Shown here piece by piece: positions 17,174-46,551 of a stretch of 50,738 nucleotides of DNA. How positions within the stretch are numbered: position 1 is the first letter of the stretch; the number at the start of each line of letters is the position of its first letter. The notes below the pieces were generated by a model. That model saw nothing but the letters and a program-made list of their open reading frames with translations, did no database searches and had not been told where the DNA came from. The stretch lies in NCBI GenBank assembly GCA_002773575.1, contig PFAT01000021.1, positions 1 through 50,738 of the forward strand, written 5' to 3'. The position numbers and the translations under genes are program-made. The stretch comes from Candidatus Falkowbacteria bacterium CG10_big_fil_rev_8_21_14_0_10_44_15 (GTDB lineage Bacteria; Patescibacteriota; Patescibacteriia; Patescibacteriales; XYC2-FULL-47-12).

Positions 17174-18303
17174 GAATTTTAATTTTGGCTACTGCTTATA
17201 TCCCTCATGTCGGCGGCGCGGAAGTGGCGGTTAAAGAAATAACTAAGCGGCTGGAACGCCAGTTTGAAATGATTACGGTGCGGCTGAAAAAAGCGGATGC
17301 GGCTGAAGAACAGGTAGGCAACATCAAAGTTTATCGTTTGGGTTTTGGCTTAGGCAGAATTGACAAATACTTTTTTCCTTTCCGGGCGGCTCGGCTCGCA
17401 AATAAATTGCACCGGCAAAATCATTACGATGTCGTTTGGTCAATTATGGCGAGCTGGTCCGGCTTTGCCGCTTTATTTTTTTGCAAAAACAGCAGCGTTA
17501 AATTTTTGCTGACTTTGCAGGAAGGGGATGATTTGCGCGTGCCAGTGAGGAAATCTCTGATGGTACATCATTGGTTTAAACAAATTTTTCAACGCGCTGA
17601 TTACATCCAATGCATTTCCAGCTATTTAGCCGATTGGGCGAAAAAAATGGGAGCGACCTGTCCGATAGAGGTAGTGCCGAATGGAGTGGACCTGGAAAAA
17701 TATCAAATATCAAATATCAAATATCAAACAAATCACAAATCACAAAATCAAAATTCAAAAATTATTCTCACTACCTCGCGTTTAGTGCAAAAAAATGGAA
17801 TAGTAGATTTAATAGAAGCTACTGCGTTACTCATTACCCATTACTCATCACCCGTTACTTTAGTAATCTGTGGCGATGGCGAGGAAAGAAAGAAGTTAGA
17901 AGTTAAAAGTAAGCAGTTAGGCATTGCCGATGAAGTAAAATTTATGGGTTTTGTAAAGCCGGAAGAATTGCCAAAATTTTACGCGATTGCCGATGTATTC
18001 TGCCGGCCGTCTCTTTCCGAAGGGTTAGGCAACTCTTTTTTGGAAGCGATGGCCGCGGGCGTGCCGGTAGTGGCAACGCCGGTCGGCGGCATCCCTGATT
18101 TTTTACGGGACGGCAAGACCGGCTGGTTTTGTAGAGTTAATGACCCGGCAAGCATTGCGGAAAAAATAAAATATATTTTGGATGAACAAAATAAAGCAGA
18201 AGCGCAGAAAGTAATAAATAACGCGAAGCAAATGGTTTTAGACAAATACGATTGGGATGGCATTGCCGGTCAAATGGAAAATATTTTTAAGGCACTTAAA
18301 TGA
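17170..18303 (+). CDS. GT4-family glycosyltransferase
   Basis: 377 aa with an ATGA overlap with the upstream gene. Motifs are [14 protein letters not shown] and [33 protein letters not shown]. It carries two repeat arrays. Confidence 0.85.
17701..17763 (+). repeat. In-frame heptamer array (TATCAAA)x4 CAAATCA CAAATCA CAAAATC AAAATTC AAAAATT
   Basis: 9 x 7 = 63 nt = 21 codons. It encodes [21 protein letters not shown] in the GT-B interdomain linker between VPNGVD and the SRL..KG motif. Confidence 0.85.
17827..17861 (+). repeat. In-frame heptamer array TTACTCA TTACCCA TTACTCA TCACCCG TTACTTT
   Basis: Encodes [12 protein letters not shown] just before the beta-strand VICGDGEE. It is related to the TTACCCG array at 20641. 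Confidence 0.7.
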
Positions 18304-19946
18304 ATACGGCTATCAAAATTTATCAATTTTTAAAGAAATGTTTTAAACGTTTCGCGCCCCGCCGCGTAAGTTTGCTGGTAGAACAATACAAAATTGGCAT
18401 CAAATATGTTATTTCCGGCGGCACCGCCGCCGTGGTTGATTTAGGTTTATTGTTTTTGTTAACGGAAATTGCGGGCATATGGTATTTACTGTCGGCAGTG
18501 ATGGCTTTTATTTGTTCTCTGGTTATCGCTTTTTTACTGCACAAATTCTGGACTTTTCGCGAGAGCTCCCTGCACCGAATAAAAAAACAGTTTATTTTTT
18601 TCACTTCAATTGCGTTGCTTAATTTAGGATTAAATACCTTACTCCTCTATGTTGCCGTTGATGTTTTAAACATCTGGTATATGGCAGCCCAATTTGTGAT
18701 TATGGGCGCGCTCGCCTTTATGAATTTTGTCATCAACAAAACAGTTACCTTTCGGCGCGAAAACAAGGACGGCAACAATATTTTAATCGCGACCGGCATC
18801 TATCCGCCCGACATCGGCGGACCGGCGACATACACTAAAATATTGAGCGAGGAACTGCCTAAACTGGGGTGGGAAGTTAAAGTTGTCACTTATAGCGATG
18901 GAGACATTAAAACATTAAAACATAAAAACATAAAAACAAACGATGCGGCAGTTTTTCAAATCAGCAGAAAACAGCATATTTTTTTACGTTATTTTCAATA
19001 TTTTTGGCAAGTTTTGAAATTATTAAATTGGGCGAATATTGTTTACGCCCAAGGCCCGGTGAGCGAGGGATTGCCAACATATTGGGCGTGCAAATTGCGC
19101 GGACGAAAATATGTTTTAAAAATAGTTGGCGACTATGCTTGGGAGCAAATGCAAGTATCAAGAAAACAAGAAAACCAGAAAACAGAAAAGCAAGGATTTA
19201 TTTCATTAGATGAATTTCAAAATAAAAAATTTGATGCGCGGACGGAACGAAAGAGGCGAATTGAAAAATTGGTTGCCCGCAACGCAGATAAAGTTATTGT
19301 ACCGAGCCAGTATTTAAAAAAAATTGTTAAGGGATGGGGCGTGCCGGAAAATAAAATTAACGTTATTTACAATGCGGTTGAATTTAAATCAATCCCGCCC
19401 GTACTTAAGCCTGCAAATGAAAGATGGCTGGTATCTGTCGGCCGGCTCGTGCCTTGGAAAGGCATGGACGCGCTGATTGATATTATGCCGTCGCTAGTGC
19501 GGTCAGAACCAGCCTTAAAATTGATCATTATCGGCGAGGGGCCGGAACAAGAGCAATTAAAAATTAAAAGTGAAAAATTAAAAATTGAAGGACAAATCAG
19601 AATGCTGGGTCGGTTGGAACACGAGCAGACTTTAGCATATATTAAAGCGGCGGATGTGTTGGTGCTTAATACCGGCTATGAAGGGCTATCGCATCTGTTG
19701 CTGGAAGCGTTGCATCTGGGCGTTCCGGTTGTGACGACTAATGTCGGCGGCAATCCGGAAGTGATTCAAAATGGCATTAATGGGTTGTTGGTGGAATATA
19801 ATAATCAAACACAACTTAAAGAAGCGATTTTGCGTTTACTTAATTCGCAGGAATTAGCGCGCAAGTTTGTATTAGCCGGCAGACAAGATTTAACTAAATT
19901 TAGCCAAAAAAAAATGATTGCAGACGCCATAGCGGTAATAAATTAA
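18300..19946 (+). CDS. GtrA-like 4-TM domain fused to a GT4 glycosyltransferase
   Basis: The N-terminal ~150 aa read YVISGGTAAVVDLGLLFLLTEIAGIWYLLSAVMAFICSLVIAFLLHKFWTFR plus two more TM helices (GtrA family pattern). The remainder is GT-B: ILIATGIYPPDIGGPATY, GRLVPWKG, GYEGLSHLLLEALHLGVPVVTTNVGGNPEV. It carries three repeat arrays. Confidence 0.8.
   Translation: MNTAIKIYQFLKKCFKRFAPRRVSLLVEQYKIGIKYVISGGTAAVVDLGLLFLLTEIAGIWYLLSAVMAFICSLVIAFLLHKFWTFRESSLHRIKKQFIFFTSIALLNLGLNTLLLYVAVDVLNIWYMAAQFVIMGALAFMNFVINKTVTFRRENKDGNNILIATGIYPPDIGGPATYTKILSEELPKLGWEVKVVTYSDGDIKTLKHKNIKTNDAAVFQISRKQHIFLRYFQYFWQVLKLLNWANIVYAQGPVSEGLPTYWACKLRGRKYVLKIVGDYAWEQMQVSRKQENQKTEKQGFISLDEFQNKKFDARTERKRRIEKLVARNADKVIVPSQYLKKIVKGWGVPENKINVIYNAVEFKSIPPVLKPANERWLVSVGRLVPWKGMDALIDIMPSLVRSEPALKLIIIGEGPEQEQLKIKSEKLKIEGQIRMLGRLEHEQTLAYIKAADVLVLNTGYEGLSHLLLEALHLGVPVVTTNVGGNPEVIQNGINGLLVEYNNQTQLKEAILRLLNSQELARKFVLAGRQDLTKFSQKKMIADAIAVIN
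18904..18943 (+). repeat. In-frame octamer array ACATTAAA ACATTAAA ACATAAAA ACATAAAA ACAAACGA
   Basis: Encodes (D)IKTLKHKNIKTND. Unit 3 is the one read in the phase where T5-A6-A7 would be a TAA codon, and it has T5->A. Confidence 0.8.
19159..19198 (+). repeat. In-frame octamer array CAAGAAAA CAAGAAAA CCAGAAAA CAGAAAAG CAAGGATT
   Basis: Encodes SRKQENQKTEKQG. It shares CCAGAA with the intergenic array at 7692-7707. Confidence 0.75.
19555..19596 (+). repeat. In-frame heptamer array AATTAAA AATTAAA AGTGAAA AATTAAA AATTGAA GGACAAA
   Basis: Encodes QLKIKSEKLKIEGQ at the ELGI..V.F.G position. Units 3 and 6, which are read in the TAA-generating phase, are the ones that deviate at T4. Confidence 0.8.
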
Positions 19947-34934: not shown

Positions 34935-36026
34935 ATGAAAATTTGTTTTTTGACGCATAATGTGGATATAAAAAATGGCACTGGCAGACTTACTTTCGAA
35001 TTTATTGCGCAGTTAAAAAAGGCTCTGCCTCAGGCGGGAGTTTTAATTTTAACTACGGTAGGCAGCAGTTACGAGGGTGAGCGGGTTATCTTATATCCAA
35101 ACAAAATAAAATTACTGGTGTCTTTGCCAAAATTGAGAAAAATTTTTGAGCGCTACGATATTATTCATGCCTTTGACGGGTGGCCCTATGGCGTGATTTC
35201 CGCCTTAGCGCACTTGGGCTTAAAAAATAAATTAGTAATCACCGCCATCGGCAGCGGCTCTTTACAGCCGCTTTATCGGTGGCCAACAGGAATACTGAAA
35301 TGGGCGTACCGGCAGGCCAATGCGTTGGTAGCCATTAGTTCCTATACGGCTCGAGAAATAAAAAAGAAAGCGCCCATTGTAAATATAAAAGTTATTCCAC
35401 TTGGCATTAACTGCGAGTATTTTTTCGTTCAAGGAAATGACGAAAAACATTTAGAAGACATTAAAACTTTCCAGCCGTATCTGCTCTCGGTAGGCAGGTT
35501 AAAACCAAGGAAGGGTTACCATGTCAGTTTGCGAGTATTTGCGGCCCTGACCGCTCAACATCCCACTTTGCGTTATGTTATTATCGGCAGCGGTCGGGGA
35601 GGCTACTATAGTGAGTTGCAAAAAATTATTGCCGAATTAGGCATTGCTAATAAAGTATTATTTAAAGAAAATGTCAGCGATGAAGAGCTCGCTTTTTGGT
35701 ACCGGCAGGCAGAATTGTTTATGTTGCTGCCGCAGAATATCAACTACGATGTAGAAGGTTTCGGGCTGGTTTTTTTGGAAGCGGCTGCTTTTGGCTTGCC
35801 GGTAATCGGCGCTGCCGACAGCGGGGCCGAGGACGCGGTGTGGGACGGACAAAACGGATTTTTAGTAAAGCCCACTAATATTGCCGCCGCCGCCGCTAGA
35901 GTACAGGAGATACTAAATAATCAGGAGTTACGGCAAAAATTAAGCGTTAACTCAATGTTGTTTGCCAAAAAAATGTCCTGGGGGCATACTATTGATAGTT
36001 ATCTAAAATTATATCAATCTCTATGA
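34935..36026 (+). CDS. GT4-family glycosyltransferase
   Basis: GRLKPRKGYH, VIIGSGRGGY, DVEGFGLVFLEAAAFGLPVIGAADSGAEDAV. No repeat array. Confidence 0.85.
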   Translation: MKICFLTHNVDIKNGTGRLTFEFIAQLKKALPQAGVLILTTVGSSYEGERVILYPNKIKLLVSLPKLRKIFERYDIIHAFDGWPYGVISALAHLGLKNKLVITAIGSGSLQPLYRWPTGILKWAYRQANALVAISSYTAREIKKKAPIVNIKVIPLGINCEYFFVQGNDEKHLEDIKTFQPYLLSVGRLKPRKGYHVSLRVFAALTAQHPTLRYVIIGSGRGGYYSELQKIIAELGIANKVLFKENVSDEELAFWYRQAELFMLLPQNINYDVEGFGLVFLEAAAFGLPVIGAADSGAEDAVWDGQNGFLVKPTNIAAAAARVQEILNNQELRQKLSVNSMLFAKKMSWGHTIDSYLKLYQSL

Positions 36027-36649
36027 GTTATTATTCCGATACGCAGTACAAAGCCAAAGAAGATATTTGGTTTGAGCAGTTTTATTTTGAAAGATTTTTT
36101 AAGGGCAACCCAGGCCCAATTTTGGATGTAGGCTGCGCTACGGGAAATTTTATCGCAGTCAGGCCCGACATTATTGAAGGGATTGAAGTTGATGAAGATT
36201 CTTTGCACATCTGCCGTGAGCGCGGTTTTAAGGCAAAAAAAATAAATGTAGAAAATGAACTGGAAGCGTTGTCTGATAATTTCTATCAAGGCGTATATGT
36301 GAAACAGGTCGTTGAACATTTACATAACCCTTTGTATTTTTTTAAGCATCTTTACCGGATGCTGAAGCCGGGCGGTAAAGCAGTAATTTTAACTCCCAAT
36401 TGCCCTTACGCCTTAAACAGATTTTTTTGGGACGATTATACGCACGAGCGGCCATTTACCCAAGAAAGCTTAAAGCGCATCGCGCTGGACGCCGGTTGGC
36501 AAAAAATAAAAATTTATGCCGATTTTCGCTGTTTTCCCGGATTAGGAAAACTAATCAGATTGTTTGACCTATCGCCGAAGTTTATTAGCGCAGCGCAGAA
36601 TCTTTTTTTTATCAGGGGGTTGAGTTTAATTATGGAATTAGAGAAATAA
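36023..36649 (+). CDS. Class I SAM-dependent methyltransferase
   Basis: ILDVGCATGN, VYVKQVVEHLHNP, MLKPGGKAVILTPN. Overlaps the upstream stop. Confidence 0.75.
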   Translation: MSYYSDTQYKAKEDIWFEQFYFERFFKGNPGPILDVGCATGNFIAVRPDIIEGIEVDEDSLHICRERGFKAKKINVENELEALSDNFYQGVYVKQVVEHLHNPLYFFKHLYRMLKPGGKAVILTPNCPYALNRFFWDDYTHERPFTQESLKRIALDAGWQKIKIYADFRCFPGLGKLIRLFDLSPKFISAAQNLFFIRGLSLIMELEK

Positions 36650-36653: not shown

Positions 36654-37796
36654 ATGACCACAGCTAATTTATCGCGCCGGAAATTAATATATCTCGCAGA
36701 CATGCGCCTGCCGACTGATTGGGCGCACGGTATCCAAATAATGAAAATGTGCGAGTCGTTCGCTTTGGCCGGCATAGCCGTGGAATTAGTTGTGCCGCGG
36801 CGTTTTAACAAAATCAAACAAGATCCTTTTTCATATTATAACATCCGGCATCGCTTCAAAATTACCAAATTGCCCTGTATTGATTTGATGCCGCTGTCAA
36901 ATAGCGCCTTTATTTTTTTATTGCAAAAATTTAGCTTTTTAATTAGCGCGCGAGTTTACCTTAGCTTTAAAAAATTTTATATTTTGTACACTCGCGAACA
37001 TTGGGCCGGCTTATTTTTCCCAAAGGTTGCTTTGGAAATCCATGTTTTGCCTGTTAAAATAAAAACCATAGATATTGCCATCTGGCGCCGAGCAAGGGCA
37101 TTGATAGTTTTAACGAATTTTATTAAACAAAAGATAGTAGCGGCGCGAATTGCGGCAGACAAAATTTTAATTGCGCCGGATGGAGTAGACGCGGCTGACT
37201 TTAATTTGCCGCTATCGCCGGCACAAGCAAGACAAGCATTAGATTTGCCGGCGGACAAAAAGTTAGTTATTTATAGTGGTAGCTTGAGCTTATACTCCTG
37301 GAAAGGAGTTGACATACTACTAAAGGCGGCTCACTATTTGCCTGACAATGTTCTAGTCGTTTTAGTAGGGGGAAGTGAAGCGGAAATTCAGAGCATAAAA
37401 AGCAAAATAACTACCGACAATGTTTTATTAGTCGGCCGCCAACCATACGCTAAAATACCATATTATCTAAAGGCAGCGGATGTTTTGGCGTTGCCGAATA
37501 AATCCGGAGATGTAATGTCGGAACAATACACCTCGCCTTTAAAAATGTTTGAATATATGGCGAGCGGCCGGCCGATTGTGGCTAGTGATCTGCCATCACT
37601 GCGGGAAGTTTTGAATGAAGATAATGCCCTGCTCGTTCCGCCCGGTGATCCGTTGGCCTTGGCGCGCGGTATCATGCAGACGGTGAATGATAGGGAAACA
37701 GCCGAACATCGGGCCGCGCGGGCTTGCCAAGATGTTGAGCGGTATAGTTGGCAGAAGCGGGCTCAAAATATATTAAATTTGATACAAAGTAAATGA
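36654..37796 (+). CDS. GT4-family glycosyltransferase
   Basis: PDGVD, SGSLSLYSWKG, SEQYTSPLKMFEYMASGRPIVASDLPSLREVL. Confidence 0.8.
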   Translation: MTTANLSRRKLIYLADMRLPTDWAHGIQIMKMCESFALAGIAVELVVPRRFNKIKQDPFSYYNIRHRFKITKLPCIDLMPLSNSAFIFLLQKFSFLISARVYLSFKKFYILYTREHWAGLFFPKVALEIHVLPVKIKTIDIAIWRRARALIVLTNFIKQKIVAARIAADKILIAPDGVDAADFNLPLSPAQARQALDLPADKKLVIYSGSLSLYSWKGVDILLKAAHYLPDNVLVVLVGGSEAEIQSIKSKITTDNVLLVGRQPYAKIPYYLKAADVLALPNKSGDVMSEQYTSPLKMFEYMASGRPIVASDLPSLREVLNEDNALLVPPGDPLALARGIMQTVNDRETAEHRAARACQDVERYSWQKRAQNILNLIQSK

Positions 37797-38509
37797 AAAA
37801 TTTAATTATTATCCCAACATATAACGAGAGGAAAAATATCGCGCCGCTCATTAGGGAAATTTTTGCAATTACTCCGGATATGTATGTCATGGTAGTAGAC
37901 GATAACTCGCCTGACAAGACCTACGAGCTGGTACAGGAGCTTATGATCAGTTGGACGAGATTGTCACTATTGTTAAGGGAGAAAAAAGAGGGCTTGCGCA
38001 AGGCGTATGTGCACGCTTTTGAAAAGGCGCTGAACGATGTTGAGGTGGGAAATATAATTATGATGGACGCTGATTTTTCCCATGATCCAAAGTATATACC
38101 TAAATTTTTAGAGGTGTTAAATAATTTTGATGCAGTTGTGGGCTCTAGATACGCGCCGGCGGGCGGCACTGAAGGCTGGGCGTTATGGCGGCGCTTATTA
38201 AGCAGATATGGAAATAAATATGCGCGAAGCGTTATCGGCCTGCCGGTGCATGATTGCACGGGAGGTTTTAATGCTATGAGGACATCTATTTTAAGAAATA
38301 TAAATTTAGACGATCTTGATATGTCAGGGTACGCATTTTTAATTGAGTTAAAATATCTTTTGTGGAAATCAGGAGCGCGTCTGACAGAAATTCCCATCAT
38401 TTTTAAGAACCGTCGGGAAGAGAAATCAAAAATGTCCAGCCACATTATAAGGGAAGGCCTGCTAGCTCCTTGGTATATAAGAAAAAAGAAGTATAATTTT
38501 CATGATTGA
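37793..38509 (+). CDS. GT2 polyprenyl-phosphate mannose/hexose synthase (Dpm1/Ppm1-like, soluble type)
   Basis: IIIPTYNERKNIAPLI, VVDDNSPDKT, MDADFSHDPKYIP, GGFNAMR. Confidence 0.85.
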   Translation: MKNLIIIPTYNERKNIAPLIREIFAITPDMYVMVVDDNSPDKTYELVQELMISWTRLSLLLREKKEGLRKAYVHAFEKALNDVEVGNIIMMDADFSHDPKYIPKFLEVLNNFDAVVGSRYAPAGGTEGWALWRRLLSRYGNKYARSVIGLPVHDCTGGFNAMRTSILRNINLDDLDMSGYAFLIELKYLLWKSGARLTEIPIIFKNRREEKSKMSSHIIREGLLAPWYIRKKKYNFHD

Positions 38510-40307
38510 TATGCAGTTACAGATTTTTTTAAAAAAATACCGCTACTTTATTGCTCTATTAGCAGTTGTGGTAATTATTATTGCCACGGCTTTAATCTTG
38601 ATATTTGCGACCGTTGAGTCTGGTTGGGAGGGCGTGCCGCTGCAGTTTACCGGCGACAGTTATTTTTATTATGCCCGTCTGAAAGAAATATTTGATGGCC
38701 ACCCGTTTATCGGCAACCCGTTTTATATTGAGCATAACAATGAACTGGCGCCGGCTTTTTTTGTGGCCGATTGGCTGGCGGCAGCGCCCTTATTTTTAGG
38801 ACTATCCATTAGCGGGACGGTTATATTTAATTTATTTTTTTGGTCGCTTTTGTTTGTGGCGCTTTTTTATTTGATATTGCGTCTTAGCGGCGTGTCGGAG
38901 AAGTTGTCTTTTATAGGCGCTTTATTGGGCTATGCCGCCTCTTTTTCCATGTTGGCCAGAGCCGTTTCTCTGCAAACTGTTTTTCCGGCGTTTTTGGGCT
39001 TTTTGTTGGCAATGATTATATGGCAAAAATATCCCACCAATAAAAAAGCGACATTTTGTGTGGCCTTAACCATGACGGCATCAGTTTATGTCTACACATA
39101 TTTATCGCAGATAATAGTTGTGTTTATTCCGCTTCTGCTTTTGTACTTGTATGTTAAGCGCCGCCGCATTGAGGCGTTTTATTTGTTTTTGGCTTGTGTC
39201 TTGGCGTTTATATTATCCCTGCCTTTTATTATTTATACTTGGCGTCAAATTAATTCCCCTTATTTTTGGGAAACAATGGAGCGAGTCGGTTTGGTCTATA
39301 CGCACTTGCCGGCGTTTAATTTTGTTACAGCCGGTTTTTGGGCGGTGGCTATGATAGTTTTATTACTTTTATCTTGGCGTTGGTTGCCCGTGTTGCGTCA
39401 TGACGGAGCATACGTCAAATTTTTAAACCTGTTTTCCTTAAGCGGTTTGGCTATGGTTATCACTTCGGGCAGTAACATTATTACCGGTAAAGAGTCGGAA
39501 AATTCCCAGCACATTGAACGGTTTATGATAGTGTGGTTGGTTATGACTTTGATTATTTTTCTATCTCACACATTAAAATACAGACAATCGTTTTGGCAGA
39601 TGCATCCAATACGGCGAGTGGTTTTGACAGTACTGTTTTTAATAGCCGGTGTTGGTGTTGTGGTATATGCGCGGGAGGGGTTTAGTATAGTTTCTATGGT
39701 GCGTGATAACAGACAGAGTGTTGTTGAGCGACAGTCGTATGCGGCACCCTTGCGTTGGCTTGAAGATAATAGTATTGAACCAGCTGTCATATGGACTATT
39801 GGCGCTGATGATGTAAATAATTATGTTACTATAATGACGAAACACTATGTATTTTTCGTGCCTTCCGCGCTCACATACTTATTATCAGATGCGGAACATG
39901 CCGAGAGATATCTTGCTTATCATTTTTTTGATAATTTAGAGCAAGCAGATATTGAAAGAGATTTTTGGTCGTATGCGGGCGTAGCCCATGCTGTTCACCA
40001 ACATAAAGTATACAACCGCCGAGTGCGCGTATGCCGGTTGCTATTACTTGATAAAATGGGTTATAATTGTGGAGAGTTGACTGATTCCATTGCATTTCAA
40101 GGCAGAGATTTCTTTCAAAATTTGTATAACCAGTATGTGAAAGAAATTAAGCCCAACATAGTCCAAAAGTTGCAAAAATACCAAGTGTCATATATATTGG
40201 TTGACGGTTTATATTATCCTAACATGGCAGATAATTTTGCCATGGCTGGCATAAACAGCACCTTGGCGTACCGGGATAATAGATTCAGTATTTATATCAT
40301 TAAATAG
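38502..40307 (+). CDS. Uncharacterised polytopic membrane protein with C-terminal soluble domain (candidate GT-C-type transferase)
   Basis: 601 aa with ~12 hydrophobic helices. The conserved first loop reads GDSYFYYARLKEIFDGHPFIGNPFY. It is a paralogue of 42757-44595 and follows a Dpm1-like GT2 with an overlapping start. Confidence 0.7.
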   Translation: MIDMQLQIFLKKYRYFIALLAVVVIIIATALILIFATVESGWEGVPLQFTGDSYFYYARLKEIFDGHPFIGNPFYIEHNNELAPAFFVADWLAAAPLFLGLSISGTVIFNLFFWSLLFVALFYLILRLSGVSEKLSFIGALLGYAASFSMLARAVSLQTVFPAFLGFLLAMIIWQKYPTNKKATFCVALTMTASVYVYTYLSQIIVVFIPLLLLYLYVKRRRIEAFYLFLACVLAFILSLPFIIYTWRQINSPYFWETMERVGLVYTHLPAFNFVTAGFWAVAMIVLLLLSWRWLPVLRHDGAYVKFLNLFSLSGLAMVITSGSNIITGKESENSQHIERFMIVWLVMTLIIFLSHTLKYRQSFWQMHPIRRVVLTVLFLIAGVGVVVYAREGFSIVSMVRDNRQSVVERQSYAAPLRWLEDNSIEPAVIWTIGADDVNNYVTIMTKHYVFFVPSALTYLLSDAEHAERYLAYHFFDNLEQADIERDFWSYAGVAHAVHQHKVYNRRVRVCRLLLLDKMGYNCGELTDSIAFQGRDFFQNLYNQYVKEIKPNIVQKLQKYQVSYILVDGLYYPNMADNFAMAGINSTLAYRDNRFSIYIIK

Positions 40308-40319
40308 AAATTGTTAATT

Positions 40320-41039
40320 ATGACCACCATAAACTCCATTTCCATTTTTTTCCCCTGCTATAATGATAAAGGCACTGTTGAGAAGCTTTTAAATGATTCT
40401 GTTGCCACAATTAATAAGTTAGGAGTAGAGGATTACGAAATTATTTTTATTGATGATGGTTCAACTGACGGCGCGCGAGAATTACTGGCGTCACTACAGG
40501 GGAGAACGCCTAACTTCAAAGTGATTTTGCACGAAAAAAATTTCGGCTATGGCAGAGTGCTTAGAAGCGGTTTTGCGGCCGCCAGCAAGGAATGGATATT
40601 TTATTCTGATGGTGATGCCCAATATGACGTTAAAGAATTGCCCCTGCTTATTAGTGCATTGGAAGAAGGCGTAGATTTCGTGAGCGGTTATAAAATGAAA
40701 AGAAACGATTCTTTGAGCAGAATTATTCTTGGTAAAGTATATCAATGGGGAATTAAAATTATTTTTATGCTCAAAATCAGAGATGTTGACTGCAACTTTC
40801 GTTTAATTAGGAAATATAAAATGGACCAAATAACTCTTAGAAGTGATAGCGGCAGTGTTTGTTTAGAATTAGTTAAAAAATTGCAGAATGCCAAGGCAAT
40901 TATGCGGCAAGTACCAGTACATCACTATTCCCGCATTTACGGCCATTCACAGTTTTTCAATATCAAAAGAATAAATACTATGGTTATTACCTTGTTTAAA
41001 TTGTGGTGGCCTTTGGTAATTTTGAAAAAGACAAAGTAA
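40320..41039 (+). CDS. GT2 glycosyltransferase (polyprenyl-phosphate type)
   Basis: The start is taken at ATG 40320 (MTTINSISIFFPCYND); the track start at 40311 is TTG. Motifs are YEIIFIDDGSTDGA and YSDGDAQYD. Confidence 0.8.
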   Translation: MTTINSISIFFPCYNDKGTVEKLLNDSVATINKLGVEDYEIIFIDDGSTDGARELLASLQGRTPNFKVILHEKNFGYGRVLRSGFAAASKEWIFYSDGDAQYDVKELPLLISALEEGVDFVSGYKMKRNDSLSRIILGKVYQWGIKIIFMLKIRDVDCNFRLIRKYKMDQITLRSDSGSVCLELVKKLQNAKAIMRQVPVHHYSRIYGHSQFFNIKRINTMVITLFKLWWPLVILKKTK

Positions 41040-41049
41040 AATTAATTTT

Positions 41050-41634
41050 ATGATAAATAAATTTATTAATTTTTTGGCGCAACGGCCGGTTGTTTTGAAT
41101 TTTTTAAGAGCTGTATTAGAAAATAATCATCGCGGCGAAAAAGAAGTGATTAAGCGTGAGTTGCCCGCTAGATTGTCGCAACGAGTGTTTGATTTGGGTT
41201 GTGGTACTGGCACTTATTCGCCCTTGTTTGGACCGGAGTATGTCGGAATTGATATTTCCAAAATTTATATAGATTATGCTAAGCGGCATTATGCCAAAAA
41301 TTTTTATGTAATGGATGGTAAAAAAATAAATTTTCCCAGCCAGTCTTTTGATATTATTTGGGTCAATGGCGTCTTTCATCATCTTGATGATACTTCTGCT
41401 TTGGCGATTCTTAGTGAAATGAAGCGTTTATTAAAAGTTGGCGGTAGGGCAGTGGTAATGGAAGATGTGCCTTCCAAAACAATTTTTTCTAAAATTCTAG
41501 CCCCTTTGGATTTGGGCGACAATATCCGTCCGCCTATGGATTATCGTCGCCTGTGGGAAAAATATTTCGTTGTCCAAAAAGAATATCCAGTGCGTACCGG
41601 CATCTGCGACTTTCAAGTTTTTGTTTTAACTTGA
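41050..41634 (+). CDS. Class I SAM-dependent methyltransferase
   Basis: VFDLGCGTG, FDIIWVNGVFHHLDD, LLKVGGRAVVME. Confidence 0.8.
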   Translation: MINKFINFLAQRPVVLNFLRAVLENNHRGEKEVIKRELPARLSQRVFDLGCGTGTYSPLFGPEYVGIDISKIYIDYAKRHYAKNFYVMDGKKINFPSQSFDIIWVNGVFHHLDDTSALAILSEMKRLLKVGGRAVVMEDVPSKTIFSKILAPLDLGDNIRPPMDYRRLWEKYFVVQKEYPVRTGICDFQVFVLT

Positions 41635-41651
41635 TTCATTGCTTAAAAGTT

Positions 41652-42740
41652 ATGATTTATGTTACGCGGCCGACCATGCCCGATATCAATGAGTTTATTG
41701 GTTATACTAAGAAGATTTGGCAGAATAGATGGCTGACTAATCACGGGGAATTTGTTAATTTATTGGAAAAAAAACTAAAACACTACCTGGCGGTAGCTGA
41801 TTTGCTGTGCGTGACTAACGGCACTATCGCTTTGCAAATCGCCTTAAAGTTGTATGACTTTAAACCTGGTTCGGAAATTATCACTACCCCTTTCAGTTTT
41901 ATTGCCACTACCAACGCCATTTTGAACGAAAAGTTGCGGCCGGTTTTTGCTGATATTGATGGGGGAACTTTTAATCTGGATCCTCGCCAGGTGGAAAAAA
42001 AAATTGCTCCGAACACCAAGGCCATTTTAGCCACTCATGTCTACGGCAATCCCAGCGATGTAGTTGGTTTGCAGAGGATAGCCAATAAATACCACTTAAA
42101 AGTAATTTATGATGCGGCGCATGCTTTTGGCGTGCAGTATAAGTCGCAATCAATTCTCAACTTCGGTGATGTTTCTACTTTAAGTTTCCATGCTACTAAA
42201 GTTTTTAATACCATTGAAGGGGGCGCGCTCGTTGTCAGAAACGCCGCCTTGTCTAAAAAAATTAAGTTATTAAGAGATTTTGGCATTGTTTCAGAAGAAA
42301 AAAACATTTTAGCCGGCTTAAACGGCAAGATGAATGAGTTTCAAGCTATTATGGGTTTGTGCAATTTAGACAGTATTGACCAAATAATTAAAGAACGAAA
42401 AAGTATTTACGAACATTATGTAGAGGGGTTAGCCAATAGTAAAGTAAAATTCCAAAGCATTACCGCCAGTCGTTATAATTATAGCTATATGCCCGTTTGT
42501 TTCGTAAACAAACACAAACGGGATAAAGTATGCAATGCTTTGCTTCGGCATGGTATCATGGCCAGAAAATATTTTTATCCTTTAATAACCGATTTTAATT
42601 ATGTCAAGTATTTTGTCAGAAGGAATGAATTAAAGAACGCTGTTCTAGCGGCGGATACTGTATTATGCCTGCCGCTTTATCCAGATTTAAATTTAGGAAC
42701 AGTAGATAGAATTATAAGGATTGTAAAAAATAATATTTAA
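41652..42740 (+). CDS. DegT/DnrJ/EryC1/StrS-family PLP-dependent sugar aminotransferase
   Basis: The start is taken at ATG 41652 (MIYVTRPTMPD). The track's 41553 start overlaps the methyltransferase. Motifs are VTNGTIALQIAL, DAAHAFG and the catalytic-Lys motif SFHATKVFNTIEGG. Confidence 0.85.
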   Translation: MIYVTRPTMPDINEFIGYTKKIWQNRWLTNHGEFVNLLEKKLKHYLAVADLLCVTNGTIALQIALKLYDFKPGSEIITTPFSFIATTNAILNEKLRPVFADIDGGTFNLDPRQVEKKIAPNTKAILATHVYGNPSDVVGLQRIANKYHLKVIYDAAHAFGVQYKSQSILNFGDVSTLSFHATKVFNTIEGGALVVRNAALSKKIKLLRDFGIVSEEKNILAGLNGKMNEFQAIMGLCNLDSIDQIIKERKSIYEHYVEGLANSKVKFQSITASRYNYSYMPVCFVNKHKRDKVCNALLRHGIMARKYFYPLITDFNYVKYFVRRNELKNAVLAADTVLCLPLYPDLNLGTVDRIIRIVKNNI

Positions 42741-42756
42741 TAATGATAATTTTTAT

Positions 42757-44595
42757 ATGAAAAAAATACAGACATTTTTTAATTATTTTAAAGTCGCTGT
42801 AAATAACCATAAATTAGCCTTAGCCGGCGCATTGATTGTAGGAATAATTTATATTGCTCCCCACATTTTTTTTATTTTGTCTTTAGGAGATGATTATCAA
42901 GGTATTCCTGTAATGAATACAGCCAATGAAGATTTTTATATAGCCAGAATGCAGGAGATTATAGACGGGCATCCATTTCTTGGCTCCCCGGTTTTTTATG
43001 AAGGTAAAGATCAATGGCCGTTGACGCCTCCAGTTGGAGAAATGTTTTATGTTTTGCCGAGTCTGATATTTAATATACCCTTAATAGGAATAGTAATTGC
43101 CAGCAGGTTTGTTTTTTCATTTATTATATTTATATTAGTTTATTTTTTGATTAATAAGCTAACTTTCAATAGTAGGTTAATATCAAATAAAATAAATGCC
43201 ATTGCCGGCGCTTTGTTGGTAACGCTGGGATATGATTTAGTGGATTATCACACTCTCTGGCTATTTTTAACCGGAAAAATTAATAGCGGATATTTTTTAA
43301 TTTGGTCGCGGCCGGTTAATCCAGTAATTGGAGCAGTGTTGTTATTTGCCTTTTTATTGTCTCTTTGGTCTATTATTCAACAAAAAAAATACAAAAAAAC
43401 ATTAATAGCAGTTGCGGGCGCGCTCTTAGCGTTAATGATCGGAAATTATTTCTTTAGTTGGGGAATAGCTTTATCTGTTTTAGGGACGTTATTCATTATT
43501 TATGTGATAGAAAAAAAATATACTATCAGCAAAAGTTTACTGGCCATTGTAGCTATAGCTATTACCCTAACATCTCCTCACTGGTATTTTTCCTGGCAGT
43601 TAAGTACAAATCCTTGGTATGACGATGCGGTAATGCGCAATGGCTTATTTTATACTCATTACCCATTATTAAATAAATTACTACTGGCAACTCTAATGTT
43701 TTATGCTGTTACGCTAATTGTTTTATATTGGCACAGAAAAACTTGGCCTTTATGGAAAGAGCGGGTAATTAATACAGCTCATAATACAAAACTGCAAGAC
43801 TGGCATTTATTCTGTGTAGCTTTACTCTTAGGCGGCTTTTGGGCTCTAAACCAGCAGGTGGTTACTGGCGTGACAATTTGGCCGTTCCATTTTGTCCAAT
43901 ATACCATTCCTATAGTCATGATAACGGTTTGTGTATTATTCTACAACCTGATCAAAGCGAGATGGAAGAGCGTCTGGGTGTTGATGGTAATAATAGTAAT
44001 TTGCTCGTCTTTAACTTTTGGTATTTTTACCCAAGTAAAAGGATATAAAGGCACATTTGACTATTATGCCAGTTTGCAATCCTACGGGGGAGTTTTTGCC
44101 TGGCTGAACAATCAAAAAAAAGACTGTGTTGTTTTAACATTAGATGAATCCAATGGGGCATATGATCTTAATGGCTTAATTCCTGCTTTTACCCACTGTA
44201 ATATATACTCTGCAAATTGGGTAGCACGACCTGATAGAGCTTATGATAGTTATTTGACATTATTGCGTTTTAAGGGAGTTACGGAGGGGGATATTGGTGA
44301 ATATTTGCAGCAACACAGGCGTGAAGCATTAGCGTATCTTTTTTCCAATTGGAAAAGTTTATTTGGTATACAGCAATTTCCTGATGTTTCCGACCCGAAG
44401 TTAGAAGAAAAAATAAAAACAATACCTCATGATTATCAACAATTCATGAGGCAGGATTTCAGTGAAGCATTAAATAAATATCGTTTAGATTATATTGTGT
44501 CACTTGAGCCGCTTAAGGAGCAAGTTATAAAGCAGCTATCCGGAACGAATTTGATAAATGAAATCAATGGCGTATTTATATATTCTTTCCGTTAG
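42757..44595 (+). CDS. Uncharacterised polytopic membrane protein, paralogue of 38502-40307
   Basis: 612 aa. The first loop NEDFYIARMQEIIDGHPFLGSPVFY aligns with GDSYFYYARLKEIFDGHPFIGNPFY. The TM layout and C-terminal soluble domain are similar. Confidence 0.7.
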   Translation: MKKIQTFFNYFKVAVNNHKLALAGALIVGIIYIAPHIFFILSLGDDYQGIPVMNTANEDFYIARMQEIIDGHPFLGSPVFYEGKDQWPLTPPVGEMFYVLPSLIFNIPLIGIVIASRFVFSFIIFILVYFLINKLTFNSRLISNKINAIAGALLVTLGYDLVDYHTLWLFLTGKINSGYFLIWSRPVNPVIGAVLLFAFLLSLWSIIQQKKYKKTLIAVAGALLALMIGNYFFSWGIALSVLGTLFIIYVIEKKYTISKSLLAIVAIAITLTSPHWYFSWQLSTNPWYDDAVMRNGLFYTHYPLLNKLLLATLMFYAVTLIVLYWHRKTWPLWKERVINTAHNTKLQDWHLFCVALLLGGFWALNQQVVTGVTIWPFHFVQYTIPIVMITVCVLFYNLIKARWKSVWVLMVIIVICSSLTFGIFTQVKGYKGTFDYYASLQSYGGVFAWLNNQKKDCVVLTLDESNGAYDLNGLIPAFTHCNIYSANWVARPDRAYDSYLTLLRFKGVTEGDIGEYLQQHRREALAYLFSNWKSLFGIQQFPDVSDPKLEEKIKTIPHDYQQFMRQDFSEALNKYRLDYIVSLEPLKEQVIKQLSGTNLINEINGVFIYSFR

Positions 44596-44624: not shown

Positions 44625-45227
44625 ATGATTAAGAAAATGGAGAGACAACATTTAGAAGAGTGCGCTATGCTGCATTATAGTTCTATTGAGAATTCTTTTT
44701 TATGCGACATCGGCATTTTTTTTATTAAAAAAATATATGAGGGTTTAATAGAATCAGAAGATTGTGCCGGATATATCTATTTGGATAACTCAGAAATCGT
44801 TGGGTTTATAACCGGCAGTAAGGATATGGGCAAGTTTATTAACCATATTATTCTCAAGAATTTTTTAGTTTTTACCGTTTATGTTGGTTTCAAAATTTTT
44901 ATCAAGCCGTATTTAATGAAAAATGTTTTTGAAGCTCTGTTTTCTTCTAAAAAAAGAGGTATTGATAACACAACAGCAGAATTAGTATCAATAGCAGTTA
45001 AGAGCAATCAAAGGGGGAATGGTATAGGTAAAAAATTATTCAATGAGTTGGTTGTATTTTTTAAAGAAAATAATATATCAAAGTTTAAAGTTATGGTGGG
45101 CAAAGATAATATCGGCGCTAATAAATTCTACGAATCTTTAGGGTTTAATTTTAACTTCACTGCTAATTTATACGGCCAAGACATGAATATTTATACATAT
45201 ATATGTACAGCGAAAAAAGAAGAGTAG
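44625..45227 (+). CDS. GNAT-family N-acetyltransferase
   Basis: The acetyl-CoA motif A is VSIAVKSNQRGNGIGKKLF. YESLGFNF lies near the C-terminus. Confidence 0.7.
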   Translation: MIKKMERQHLEECAMLHYSSIENSFLCDIGIFFIKKIYEGLIESEDCAGYIYLDNSEIVGFITGSKDMGKFINHIILKNFLVFTVYVGFKIFIKPYLMKNVFEALFSSKKRGIDNTTAELVSIAVKSNQRGNGIGKKLFNELVVFFKENNISKFKVMVGKDNIGANKFYESLGFNFNFTANLYGQDMNIYTYICTAKKEE

Positions 45228-45456: not shown

Positions 45457-46551
45457 ATGGCAAAAAAAATAATTCCTTGGTATCAGCCGCAGACTGGCAG
45501 CTTGGAACGTAAATTAATCAGCCAAGTTTTAAAAAGCGACTATTTAAATGAAGGGGAATATACAACTCGTTTTGAAAAAGAGACAGCTAAATTAATTGAC
45601 GCCAAGCATGTTATTGCTGTTACCAGCGGAACCATAGCAATATTTTTGTCGTTGAAAGCATTAGGTATTGGCGCCGGCGACGAAGTCATTGTGCCTGATC
45701 TAACATTTATTGCCACTGCCAATGCTGTGGATCTTTGCGGCGCCAAGCCTGTTTTGGTAGATATCAACCCTAATAATTTAACTATTAGCGTTAATGCCAT
45801 TAAAAAAGCTATTACCAAAAAAACCAAAGCAATTATTCCGGTGCATGTTTCCGGACGTGGAGCTGACATGGAAGAGATAATGAAATTGGCCCGTCATTAT
45901 AAGCTAAAGATAGTTGAAGACGTGGCTGAAGCTTTTATGTCTAAGTATAAAGGCAAATATTTGGGGACGTTTGGAGATGCCGGTTGTTTCTCGCTTTCGC
46001 CTTTCAAAGTCATTATGACCGGCCAAGGCGGTTTAATAGCTACAAATAATGATAAGTTGGCTTTATATTTACGACAGCTTAAAGATCAGGGGCGACCAAG
46101 ACAAGGAACTGGCGGAGATGATATTCATCCTGTTAGAGGATATAATTTTAAATTTACCAATCTGCAAGCAGCGATCGGACTAGGTCAGCTTGCTCAACTA
46201 GAGTCTCGTTTAGAAAAAATTAGAAAAACTTATAAGCAATACTCAAATAAACTGATTTCTAAGAACTTTTCTTTATTTGAATTTAATATAGACTCAGGAG
46301 AAGTTCCGTTGTGGGTTGATGGTTGGACTAAAAATAGGAATAAATTATCAGACTATTTGCATGCCAAAAACATTGGTTGCCGTAATTTTTGGTTGCCGTT
46401 GCACCGTCAAAAGCCATATCGTTTAGCTGATAAAAATTTTTCATATAGCATAAAAATGTCGTCTCAGTCTTTATGGCTGCCGTCGGCCTTTACCTCTTCT
46501 AGTAAAGATATAGATTTGGTTTGTCGAGAAATTAATAGTTTTTTTAAGTAA
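45457..46551 (+). CDS. DegT/DnrJ/EryC1/StrS-family PLP-dependent sugar aminotransferase
   Basis: IPWYQP, VTSGTIAIFLSL, EDVAEAF and the catalytic-Lys motif SLSPFKVIMTGQGG. Confidence 0.85.
   Translation: MAKKIIPWYQPQTGSLERKLISQVLKSDYLNEGEYTTRFEKETAKLIDAKHVIAVTSGTIAIFLSLKALGIGAGDEVIVPDLTFIATANAVDLCGAKPVLVDINPNNLTISVNAIKKAITKKTKAIIPVHVSGRGADMEEIMKLARHYKLKIVEDVAEAFMSKYKGKYLGTFGDAGCFSLSPFKVIMTGQGGLIATNNDKLALYLRQLKDQGRPRQGTGGDDIHPVRGYNFKFTNLQAAIGLGQLAQLESRLEKIRKTYKQYSNKLISKNFSLFEFNIDSGEVPLWVDGWTKNRNKLSDYLHAKNIGCRNFWLPLHRQKPYRLADKNFSYSIKMSSQSLWLPSAFTSSSKDIDLVCREINSFFK

What the first reader, a model, noticed from the sequence alone, without database searches (positions are those of the whole stretch)
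38502..44595. Two paralogous ~600-aa polytopic membrane proteins next to Dpm1-type GT2 genes: possibly an undescribed GT-C-like transferase family
ORFs 38502-40307 and 42757-44595 share their architecture. Each has an N-terminal TM helix, then a first extracytoplasmic loop with the conserved block (D/E)(S/D)(Y/F)(F/Y)(Y/I)AR(L/M)(K/Q)EI(F/I)DGHPF(I/L)G(N/S)P. About 11 more TM helices and a ~200-aa soluble C-terminal domain follow. I do not recognise a named family for them.

Each is associated with a polyprenyl-phosphate-type GT2:
- 37793-38509 overlaps the start of the first.
- 40320-41039 heads the sub-operon that contains the second.

This mirrors the established donor-synthase/GT-C pairs Ppm1-Pmt, ArnC-ArnT, GtrB-GtrV and CsbB-YfhO, and also the 26491/27491 pair in this window. 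An acidic residue pair in the first outside loop is the hallmark of GT-C catalysis.
Basis: inference. Interest (0 to 1): 0.65.

Follow-up and report, generated by a model that had tools for sequence, protein, structure and literature searches.

The report
New GT-C glycosyltransferase family, Patescibacteria
Two related 600-residue membrane proteins in this candidate-phyla-radiation genome belong to an unannotated family with the fold of lipid-sugar-dependent (GT-C) glycosyltransferases. They most likely decorate the cell surface using sugars supplied by the small lipid-phosphate sugar synthases encoded beside them.

Summary
ORF A (38502-40307) and ORF B (42757-44595) are full-length paralogues (BLASTP E 2e-20, 22% identity). 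Neither reaches threshold for any Pfam or NCBIfam model.

- Fold: AlphaFold2 models are confident (pLDDT 93 and 84). For A the first 31 Foldseek PDB matches are all GT-C enzymes (AftA, STT3/PglB/AglB, ArnT, DPY19, Pmt, ALG, Emb, AftD). Transporters reach probability 0.2 or less.
- Remote homology: a profile-profile comparison links the family to the GT39/PMT_2 protein of the same window (probability 86-91%, controls 0.3-2.3%). It aligns D52 of A with that family's invariant loop-1 "DE".
- Family size: about 2,000 representatives at 50% identity. Every named one is Patescibacteria.
- Fusions: members occur fused to a Dpm1-type GT2, to the GtrA flippase domain, or to a SAM methyltransferase.
- Neighbours: 27 of 38 family genes have a Dpm1/ArnC-type GT2 within 3 kb.
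- Synthases: GT2a matches Dol-P-Man synthase (2e-31) and GT2b matches ArnC (4.5e-23).

Corrections:
- The loop-1 "acid pair" is one acid that shifts by a residue between subfamilies.
- There are 11 TM helices in all, not about 12.
- No separate sub-operon is shown.

Donor sugar and acceptor remain unknown. This is a new sequence family of a known kind.

The parts
38502..40307 (+). ORF A (601 aa; alternative start 38511 gives 598 aa). Subfamily-A member of the new GT-C family. 11 TM helices with the N-terminus inside. Outer loop 1 spans residues 42-102 with helix 53-64. The extracytoplasmic alpha/beta C-terminal domain spans 404-601.
   Evidence: ORF. (AF2 pLDDT 93.3, pTM 0.91). (Foldseek: AftA 1e-5, STT3, PglB, ArnT TM 0.49/0.53). 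(hhalign to the PMT_2 family: 86-91% against 0.3-2.3% in controls). (topology).
42757..44595 (+). ORF B (612 aa). Subfamily-B paralogue with the same architecture. The loop-1 acid is E58/D59 in place of D52.
   Evidence: E 2e-20 against A. (AF2 pLDDT 83.5, pTM 0.88). (Foldseek: AftA 1e-5 with TM 0.51, PglB, DPY19, STT3, AglB, ArnT, AftD, ALG9). (241 homologues, all from Patescibacteria).
37793..38509 (+). GT2a. A 238-aa polyprenyl-phosphate hexose synthase of the Dpm1 type without TM helices. It is translationally coupled to ORF A.
   Evidence: Glycos_transf_2, 2.7e-29. (Pyrococcus Dol-P-Man synthase 5mlz, 2.3e-31, residues 1-223). (AglJ, Dol-P-hexose transferase and PpgS are the best NCBIfam models, all below cut-off). 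(no TM). (overlap). (orthologues at E 1e-55 to 1e-120 beside family genes in 17 of 24 species loci).
40320..41039 (+). GT2b. A 239-aa ArnC-type polyprenyl-phosphate glycosyltransferase without TM helices. It starts 12 nt after ORF A and lies 1.7 kb upstream of ORF B.
   Evidence: Glycos_transf_2, 2.9e-26. (ArnC model, 1.5e-25, below cut-off). (ArnC structures 9bhc and 9hwj, 4.5e-23, residues 4-223)..
41050..41634 (+). SAM-dependent methyltransferase between GT2b and ORF B. It belongs to the methyltransferase class recurrently linked, and sometimes fused, to family genes.
   Evidence: Methyltransf_11, 9.5e-19. (methyltransferase within 3 kb of 27 of 38 family genes). (methyltransferase-family fusions P0199 and L020).
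41553..42740 (+). DegT/DnrJ/EryC1-type sugar aminotransferase directly upstream of ORF B. The true start is probably downstream of 41634. It probably helps make the amino-sugar donor.
   Evidence: DegT_DnrJ_EryC1, 1.7e-91, from residue 46. (same order GT2-MTase-(FdtA)-DegT-B in Falkowbacteria and Taylorbacteria).
44625..45227 (+). GNAT acetyltransferase downstream of ORF B. Candidate N-acetylase of the amino sugar.
   Evidence: Acetyltransf_1, 2.9e-14. The role is inferred from position only.
45457..46551 (+). Second DegT-type aminotransferase at the end of the co-directional gene run.
   Evidence: DegT_DnrJ_EryC1, 7.5e-97.
36023..36649 (+). Methyltransf_23-type SAM methyltransferase two genes upstream of GT2a. 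Likely counterpart of the methyltransferase that lies between GT2a and the family gene in most other genomes.
   Evidence: Methyltransf_23, 8.8e-16..
18300..19946 (+). GtrA domain fused to a GT4 glycosyltransferase. It is the only GtrA-type candidate flippase found in the window.
   Evidence: GtrA_DPMS_TM, 1.2e-22, residues 35-151, plus Glycos_transf_1. That it serves A or B is inference.

Best explanation
ORF A and ORF B are extracytoplasmic-acting glycosyltransferases of the GT-C fold (GT-C_A type, the class of ArnT, PMT, STT3 and AftA). They form a previously unannotated sequence family that, as far as named hits show, is confined to Patescibacteria (CPR).

Each is the last enzyme of a Gtr/Arn-like multi-component pathway:
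1. Cytoplasmic enzymes tailor a nucleotide sugar. These are the DegT aminotransferases, the GNAT and the methyltransferases.
2. A small membrane-peripheral GT2 loads the sugar onto undecaprenyl (polyprenyl) phosphate. GT2a is Dpm1-like and would serve A. GT2b is ArnC-like and would serve B.
3. A GtrA-type protein flips the lipid-linked sugar.
4. The GT-C transfers it to a cell-surface acceptor outside the membrane. The catalytic base would be an acid at the N-terminal cap of the first loop-1 helix (D52 in A, E58/D59 in B). The other invariant outward-facing residues would bind metal, phosphate and sugar: E62, D65, E77, D90, R153, R261, H268 and H337.

Shown: paralogy, fold, remote homology to GT39/PMT_2, topology indicators, gene fusions and conserved neighbourhood.
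Inferred: the donor lipid, the donor sugars (probably a hexose for A and an N-acylated amino-deoxy sugar for B), the acceptor and the catalytic roles of individual residues.
For: Fold:
- Confident AF2 models.
- For A, PDB matches 1-31 are all GT-C enzymes (AftA 8if8 E 1e-5; ArnT 5ezm TM 0.49/0.53; STT3, PglB, AglB, DPY19, Pmt, ALG6/12/3, AftB, Emb, AftD).
- For B, matches 1-14 are all GT-C.

Sequence-level link:
- hhalign of the family against the window's PMT_2/GT39 family gives probability 91%, E 1e-6, colinear over family residues 73-285.
- Reversed and block-shuffled controls give 0.3-2.3%.
- The extended alignment pairs D52-S53 with the invariant D21-E22 of the PMT_2 family, and E77 with E46.

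System logic:
- N-terminal fusions to a Dpm1-like GT2 (P0041, P0203, P0206, P0233).
- N-terminal fusions to GtrA (P0177, P0180, P0226, P0253, P0261, L017).
- N-terminal fusions to a methyltransferase (P0199, L020).
- A free GtrA gene directly upstream in L025.
- A Dpm1/ArnC-type GT2 within 3 kb of 27 of 38 family genes.
- Orthologues of GT2a in 17 of 24 species-representative loci.
- A third paralogue beside its own GT2 in Falkowbacteria.
- GT2a matches Dol-P-Man synthase at 2.3e-31, and GT2b matches ArnC at 4.5e-23.

Outward-facing active site:
- All highly conserved columns lie in outer loops, outer helix halves or the C-terminal domain.
- Charge follows the positive-inside rule.
- The C-terminal domain has conserved Cys pairs.
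Against: - No biochemical data exist for any member.
- Fold similarity is moderate (TM 0.4-0.5, rmsd 7-14 A). No residue-level structural superposition could be made here, so the catalytic assignment rests on hhalign register and helix position.
- The acid at the helix cap is not in one fixed column. About 11% of sequences lack D/E at columns 52-53.
- 11 of 38 family genes have no GT2 within 3 kb, for example L029, L015 and L010, the last at a contig edge.
- GT2 genes are common in such glycan islands, so adjacency alone is weak. The fusions carry most of the weight.
- No stand-alone GtrA gene lies next to A or B in this window.
Confidence: 0.82

Rival explanations
1. A and B are oligosaccharyltransferases in the STT3/PglB/AglB sense. 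They would move a preassembled glycan en bloc from undecaprenyl-diphosphate onto proteins such as pilins or S-layer proteins, rather than adding single sugars from a monophosphate donor.
For: STT3, PglB and AglB score as well as ArnT and AftA in Foldseek. The window encodes many GT4 enzymes able to build an oligosaccharide.
Against: There is no WWDxG-type motif in either protein. The profile search finds no similarity to any PDB OST sequence. The recurrent fusions and neighbours are Dpm1/ArnC-type synthases and GtrA, which make and flip monophosphate-linked single sugars. The detectable sequence homology is to the PMT_2/GT39-83 clan.
Confidence: 0.07
2. They are glycan polymerases or ligases, or otherwise non-GT-C membrane enzymes of the Wzy, WaaL or SEDS type, that use Und-PP-linked repeat units.
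For: They are large polytopic proteins in a surface-glycan island. Neighbouring Wzy_C-type genes show that such chemistry occurs in this organism.
Against: No Wzy_C or other polymerase model is hit. No ligase, polymerase or SEDS structure appears among the fold matches, whereas GT-C enzymes fill the list. Dedicated Wzy_C proteins already exist at 7751 and 10702.
Confidence: 0.03
3. They are transporters or flippases, or catalytically dead GT-C-like scaffolds, that only accompany the GT2 enzymes.
For: There is no family annotation. Polytopic proteins next to glycosyltransferases are sometimes exporters.
Against: MFS and other transporters reach only probability 0.2 or less, with TM about 0.1. 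Strong conservation of acidic, basic and His residues sits on the outer face and in loop 1 across about 275 sequences down to about 20% identity. This pattern fits an extracytoplasmic active site better than a translocation pathway. GtrA domains are fused to the family, which would be redundant if the family itself flipped the lipid.
Confidence: 0.05

Closest known systems
AftA (GT85), priming arabinofuranosyltransferase of Mycobacterium tuberculosis, PDB 8if8
   Same: It is the best structural match for both A and B (E 1e-5, TM 0.47-0.52). Both have an 11-TM GT-C core and a long first outer loop with crossed helices. The AftA paper reports an alpha/beta C-terminal domain covering the active site, a catalytic Asp at the start of the loop helix stabilised by an Arg on that helix, and AftA's similarity to ArnT, OST, Emb and AftD (PMC10265970). 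The family has an acid at position 52/53 followed by the near-invariant R59 on the same helix.
   Different: There is no detectable sequence similarity. AftA has two extra N-terminal TM helices. Its donor, decaprenyl-P-arabinofuranose, comes from a PRPP-dependent pathway that has no genes in this window. The neighbours here are Dpm1/ArnC-type GT2 enzymes.
ArnB-ArnC-ArnT pathway (GT83 ArnT, PDB 5ezm/5f15)
   Same: The ORF B cassette has the same parts list. It holds an ArnC-like GT2 (4.5e-23 to ArnC structures), a DegT-type aminotransferase (the family ArnB belongs to, by my own knowledge) and a GT-C whose model matches ArnT.
   Different: GT2b lacks the two C-terminal TM helices of ArnC. The GT-C is not a PMT_2/GT83 member by Pfam threshold. 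The organism is a CPR bacterium, presumably without lipid A, so the acceptor must differ. Extra methyltransferase and GNAT genes are present.
GT39/GT83 'PMT_2' proteins (PF13231), including the window's own ORF 33166-34926
   Same: This is the only described family with detectable profile-profile homology (probability 86-91%, E 1e-6 to 5e-6, colinear). The loop-1 DE motif aligns with D52-S53. Both families occur fused to GtrA in CPR (P0355).
   Different: HMM scores stay below the curated cut-off. Only 3 of 49 members give even weak hits, the best at 1e-3. The family HMM does not find the window's PMT_2 protein at E<=10. The motif sets differ: RPVSMQ against IDIDG in outer loop 2.
GtrA-GtrB-GtrV (Gtr*) O-antigen glucosylation, CsbB-GtcA-YfhO teichoic-acid glycosylation, and the GT136 three-component system
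   Same: The system logic is the same: a polyprenyl-phosphate sugar synthase, a small flippase and a GT-C acting outside the membrane (PMC11127046; PMC8035078 was listed but not read). Here the linkage is hard-wired in some genomes by GT2-GT-C and GtrA-GT-C fusions.
   Different: The family is not related in sequence to any annotated Gtr*, YfhO or other Pfam GT-C model. The synthases are short and lack TM helices. A SAM methyltransferase is an equally constant partner, which is not part of the classical three-component scheme.

Membership tests
GT-C fold superfamily (structural class) | Polytopic membrane domain (7-13 TM helices) with the conserved GT-C helix arrangement | tested here: met
   AF2 models have 11 TM helices. 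Foldseek finds only GT-C enzymes at probability 0.96 or above (TM 0.4-0.53) and transporters at 0.2 or less.
GT-C fold superfamily (structural class) | Long first extracytoplasmic loop with short helices that carries a conserved catalytic acidic residue | tested here: met
   Loop 1 (residues 42-102) has helix 53-64 and a short helix 76-78. D/E is present at column 52 or 53 in 244 of 275 sequences, and E62, D65 and E77 are near-invariant. D52 aligns with the DE motif of the PMT_2 family. The catalytic role itself was not tested.
GT-C fold superfamily (structural class) | Active site on the extracytoplasmic side of the membrane | tested here: met
   Fusions place cytoplasmic GT2 or GtrA domains one TM helix before the motif. 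Charge follows the positive-inside rule, and all conserved columns lie on the outer side. This is computational evidence only.
GT-C fold superfamily (structural class) | Uses a polyprenyl-phosphate or -diphosphate-linked sugar donor | not testable with these tools
   Supported only indirectly by Dpm1/ArnC-type GT2 and GtrA fusions and neighbours.
PMT_2 / GT39-GT83 (Pfam PF13231) | Score above the Pfam gathering threshold for PF13231 or PF02366 | tested here: not met
   A and B give no hit. Only 3 of 49 diverse members give sub-threshold hits. Profile-profile similarity alone is seen.
Oligosaccharyltransferase STT3/PglB/AglB (GT66) | WWDxG motif in the C-terminal domain and sequence similarity to STT3 | tested here: not met
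   No WW[DE] or W[WYF]DxG motif occurs in A or B. The profile search finds no PDB sequence match.
AftA / GT85 and other arabinofuranosyltransferases | Sequence membership, and a decaprenyl-P-Araf supply pathway (PRPP transferase, DprE1/E2) in the genome neighbourhood | tested here: not met
   There is no sequence hit to AftA, AftB, AftD or Emb. None of the ORFs scanned against Pfam (most of the ORFs of 100 aa or more) matches a PRPP-transferase or DprE family. A window cannot exclude such genes elsewhere in the genome.
Gtr-like three-component extracytoplasmic glycosylation system (system level) | Polyprenyl-phosphate sugar synthase (GT2 of the Dpm1/GtrB/ArnC type) genetically linked to the GT-C | tested here: met
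   GT2a overlaps A, and GT2b lies 12 nt after A and 1.7 kb before B. 27 of 38 family genes have such a GT2 within 3 kb. Four GT2-family fusion proteins exist.
Gtr-like three-component extracytoplasmic glycosylation system (system level) | Dedicated small flippase (GtrA, GtcA or similar) | tested here: inconclusive
   GtrA is fused to the family in at least 6 proteins and lies adjacent in L025. In this window the only GtrA domain is fused to a GT4 about 18.6 kb upstream of ORF A.

The most novel reading that the evidence does not exclude
The family is the core of a CPR-specific four-part module: synthase, SAM methyltransferase, flippase and GT-C. The methyltransferase is translationally coupled or fused to the cytoplasmic N-terminus of the GT-C. 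It would methylate the polyprenyl-phosphate-linked sugar at the inner membrane face before flipping. These cells would then decorate their surface glycans, S-layer or pili with O-methylated or otherwise tailored sugars outside the membrane. That route has not been described for classical Gtr, Arn or YfhO systems.
Probability: 0.2. Interest if true: 0.65.

Novelty: new variant of a known kind. Interest (0 to 1): 0.45.

Why it matters
Patescibacteria (CPR) are tiny, mostly uncultured episymbionts. How they build the surface that contacts their hosts is largely unknown.

This work assigns a fold and a probable mechanism to a large 'hypothetical protein' family (about 2,000 clusters at 50% identity) that no current annotation model names. 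It shows that the family is wired to lipid-sugar synthases, flippases and methyltransferases.

If one member were characterised it would probably found a new CAZy GT family. That would give a handle on CPR envelope glycosylation.

The general mechanism, a GT-C with a Dpm1-like synthase and GtrA, is well established elsewhere. The result therefore fills an annotation gap and does not overturn anything.

Tried and rejected
- Direct HMM annotation. Pfam and NCBIfam give nothing above threshold for A, B or 49 diverse relatives. The best were DUF2339 at 0.032, PMT_2 at 1e-3 and DUF6057 at 9e-6 in one member.
- Sequence-profile search of PDB chains. There were 0 hits at E<=10.
- hhalign of the family profile against single sequences of the window's other two GT-C-like proteins. 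No signal appeared (probability 4% and 1%). A signal appeared only when the PMT_2 protein was replaced by a 30-sequence alignment.
- Family HMM against all window ORFs. No further paralogue was found, and the GT-C-like ORFs at 27434 and 33166 are not members.
- Viral structure library. Nothing was informative (best E 6e-3, unnamed).
- Promoter and terminator scans. Counts equal the shuffled expectation, so they say nothing about operon structure.
- My first Kyte-Doolittle TM parse was too crude, giving overlapping segments. I replaced it with helices from the AF2 models.
- Literature searches for a description of this family in CPR found none.
- Transporter, polymerase/ligase and OST readings were considered and set aside (see rivals).
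- The AftA-like arabinofuranosyl reading was set aside because no PRPP-dependent donor pathway is encoded nearby.

Full report
**Observation.** The window carries a long run of co-directional genes on the + strand. ORF A (38502-40307, 601 aa) and ORF B (42757-44595, 612 aa) are real open reading frames. They align end to end (BLASTP E 2e-20, 22% identity), so the claimed paralogy is confirmed. Neither protein reaches threshold for any Pfam-A or NCBIfam model.

GT2a (37793-38509) ends with a TGA at 38507-38509. That stop lies inside the ATG-38502 reading of A and 1 nt before an alternative ATG at 38511. The database copy of the protein is 598 aa and so uses the second start. GT2b (ATG 40320) begins 12 nt after the stop of A.

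**Who has it.** A has 42 close relatives and B has 241. All are unnamed 'hypothetical proteins' without Pfam domains. Every one that carries an organism name is Patescibacteria (CPR): Falkow-, Portnoy-, Magasanik-, Niyogi-, Lloyd-, Komeili- and Taylorbacteria and Paceibacterota. The closest named genome is a Falkowbacteria MAG (66% identity for A, 60% for B) with a nearly syntenic locus. A profile of 29 sequences finds 1,992 cluster representatives at E<=1e-3, of which 581 are at E<=1e-30, among 1.84 billion representatives. This is a large family, not an orphan pair.

**Fold.** AlphaFold2 with family alignments gives confident models: A has pLDDT 93.3 and pTM 0.91, and B has pLDDT 83.5 and pTM 0.88.
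- For A, Foldseek against the PDB returns GT-C enzymes in ranks 1-31: AftA (E 1e-5), STT3 of yeast and human OST, PglB, AglB, ArnT (TM 0.49/0.53), DPY19, Pmt1/2/4, ALG6, ALG12, ALG3, AftB, EmbC and AftD. The first non-GT-C entry is an MFS transporter at probability 0.20 and TM 0.12.
- For B, ranks 1-14 are all GT-C, with AftA again first (E 1e-5, TM 0.51).
- The AftA paper describes an 11-TM GT-C core, a first long outer loop of two crossed helices, and an alpha/beta C-terminal domain that caps the site. The loop carries the catalytic Asp, stabilised by an Arg on the helix (PMC10265970).
- The models here have matching elements. There are 11 TM helices, a loop 1 with helix 53-64 and a short helix 76-78, and an alpha/beta domain from about residue 404 to the end.

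**Sequence-level link to a known GT-C family.** Single-sequence comparisons with the window's other GT-C-like proteins gave nothing. A 49-sequence family alignment against a 30-sequence alignment of the window's PMT_2/GT39 protein family gave more.
- hhalign reports probability 91%, E 1.1e-6, colinear over family residues 73-285.
- Reversing the PMT_2 alignment, or shuffling it in 25-column blocks ten times, drops this to 0.3-2.3% with E>=0.02. The signal is therefore not a composition artefact.
- In the extended alignment the invariant D21-E22 of the PMT_2 family (its loop-1 'DE') pairs with D52-S53 of A, and E46 pairs with E77.
- The family is thus a distant sister of GT39/GT83 but not a member. 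Only 3 of 49 members give even weak PF13231 hits, and the family HMM does not detect the window's PMT_2 protein.

**Conserved residues and topology.** A 275-sequence alignment covering both subfamilies was analysed.
- Near-invariant positions (A numbering) are Y56, R59, E62, D65, G66, G71, P73, E77, D/E90, P96, R153, Y198, P241, R261, T267, H268, G329 and H337.
A reads D52-S53-Y54 where B reads N57-E58-D59. Even so, 244 of 275 sequences have an acid at column 52 or 53, at the N-terminal cap of the loop-1 helix.
- Taking the TM helices from the model, K+R are 7 of 40 residues in predicted cytoplasmic loops against 6 of 110 in outer loops.
- All 28 columns conserved at 85% or more fall in outer loops, outer halves of helices or the C-terminal domain.
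- That domain holds subfamily-specific conserved Cys pairs: C511/C523 in all 136 sequences that have the segment, and columns 427/448 in B-type sequences.
- Together with the fusions below, this places loop 1 and the C-terminal domain outside the cell.

**System context.** GT2a's nearest solved relative is the Pyrococcus dolichol-phosphate mannose synthase (2.3e-31 over the catalytic domain). GT2b's is ArnC (4.5e-23). Both lack TM helices, unlike the 330-aa GT2 proteins at 24728 and 26491.

Nine of the ten proteins scanned from the representative set (chosen mainly for their N-terminal extensions) proved to be fusions. Five are GtrA fusions, three are Dpm1-like GT2 fusions and one is a Methyltransf_23 fusion. 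P0041 is a further GT2 fusion.

In 24 species-representative genomes:
- A short GT2 orthologous to GT2a (E 1e-55 to 1e-120) lies within 6 kb in 17.
- L017 is a GtrA fusion and L020 a methyltransferase fusion, and L025 has a free GtrA gene 9 nt upstream.

Over 38 family genes in 29 loci, 27 have a Dpm1/ArnC/GtrB-type GT2 within 3 kb. The Falkowbacteria relative has a third, divergent paralogue (HMM E 2e-47) beside its own GT2. Four B-family neighbourhoods repeat the order GT2-methyltransferase-(FdtA)-DegT-B or variants of it.

This is the layout of the Gtr/Arn/CsbB-YfhO-type multi-component systems reviewed in PMC11127046.

**Mechanism proposed.**
1. Cytoplasmic tailoring enzymes make the nucleotide sugar.
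2. GT2a or GT2b loads it onto polyprenyl phosphate.
3. A GtrA-type protein flips it. In this window the only GtrA domain is fused to a GT4 at 18300-19946.
4. A or B transfers the sugar to an extracytoplasmic acceptor.

For B, the ArnC-like synthase with DegT aminotransferases and a GNAT points to an N-acylated amino-deoxy sugar. FdtA in relatives suggests a 3-amino-3,6-dideoxyhexose. For A, the Dpm1-like synthase points to a hexose. The acceptor is unknown. Candidates are the polymer built by the island's GT4 enzymes and handled by the two Wzy_C-TPR proteins, or surface proteins. These last points are inference.

**Rivals.**
- An OST-type function is unlikely. There is no WWDxG motif, and the partners are monophosphate-sugar synthases.
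- Polymerase/ligase and transporter readings have no fold or HMM support.
- An arabinofuranosyl pathway lacks its donor genes in the window.

**Unexpected extra.** A SAM methyltransferase (Zn ribbon plus Methyltransf_23, about 285 aa) is as constant a partner as the GT2.
- It sits directly upstream of the family gene in eight subfamily-A loci and overlaps its start in most of these.
- It lies within 3 kb of 27 of 38 family genes.
- It is fused to the family in two cases.
- Classical three-component systems have no such part. It may methylate the lipid-linked sugar before flipping. This is untested.

**Novelty and verdict.** No paper describing this family was found, and no curated model names it. 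The fold, the chemistry implied and the system logic are all known. What is new is the sequence family, its apparent restriction to CPR and its methyltransferase linkage. I rate it a new variant of a known kind, of moderate interest.

Noticed in passing
L007:5123-5977, L009, L011, L012, L016, L022, L026, L028 (gene between GT2a and the family gene); window 36023-36649 and 41050-41634: A SAM methyltransferase of about 285 aa (Zn ribbon plus Methyltransf_23) sits immediately upstream of the family gene in many CPR genomes and overlaps its start in most of these. It is fused to the family's N-terminus in P0199 and L020. It is linked as often as the GT2 (27 of 38 genes within 3 kb). Its substrate is unknown.
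   Followed up: partly
window 24728-25714, 26491-27486, 27434-29179, 33166-34926, 37793-38509, 38502-40307, 40320-41039, 42757-44595: The island holds four GT-C-type membrane proteins. ORF 27434 gives weak Alg9/TMEM260 hits, ORF 33166 is PMT_2, and the others are A and B. It also holds four polyprenyl-phosphate-type GT2 enzymes, two with C-terminal TM helices and two without. This suggests four parallel extracytoplasmic glycosylation branches.
   Followed up: partly
window 18300-19946: A GtrA (flippase-type) domain is fused to the N-terminus of a GT4 glycosyltransferase. It is the only GtrA domain found in the window.
   Followed up: no
window 7751-9985 and 10702-12999: Two tandem proteins of about 750 aa combine a Wzy_C (O-antigen ligase/polymerase-like) membrane domain with C-terminal TPR repeats. 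A small TPR protein lies between them (9998-10684).
   Followed up: no
window 1585-7544: An ECF-type sigma factor (1585-2136) and a DUF5667 protein (2151-3299) precede a 1253-aa ORF (3783-7544). That ORF has no Pfam hit, and the 4-6 kb bin inside it has raised G+C (0.52 against about 0.44 nearby). It may be a regulated surface protein.
   Followed up: no
window 40000-46000: G+C falls to 0.34-0.37 across the cassette from GT2b to the second DegT gene, which contains ORF B. The rest of the island is at 0.41-0.45. ORF B also has a much closer database relative (80%) than ORF A (66%). The cassette may be a laterally exchanged or variable module.
   Followed up: no
L004:16762-18636 (- strand), also in L002 and L003: The Falkowbacteria relative carries a third, divergent family paralogue (HMM E 2e-47, 624 aa) next to its own 242-aa GT2 gene, which is followed by amine-oxidase and epimerase genes. 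This window has no counterpart.
   Followed up: partly
L006 and L011 (genome contigs records CAYHIM010000002.1, CAZPCV010000002.1): Their MAG titles say 'uncultured Gammaproteobacteria bacterium'. L006 nevertheless carries a near-syntenic Falkowbacteria-like locus (63% identity to A). The taxonomic labels look wrong.
   Followed up: no
P0355 (698 aa, relative of window ORF 33166-34926): A bona fide PMT_2/GT39 protein from CPR is also fused to a GtrA domain. GtrA-GT-C fusion therefore recurs in these genomes beyond the new family.
   Followed up: no
window 41553-41634: The longest reading of the DegT ORF (GTG 41553) overlaps the preceding methyltransferase by 82 nt. The Pfam match starts at residue 46, so the true start is probably downstream of 41634.
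   Followed up: no
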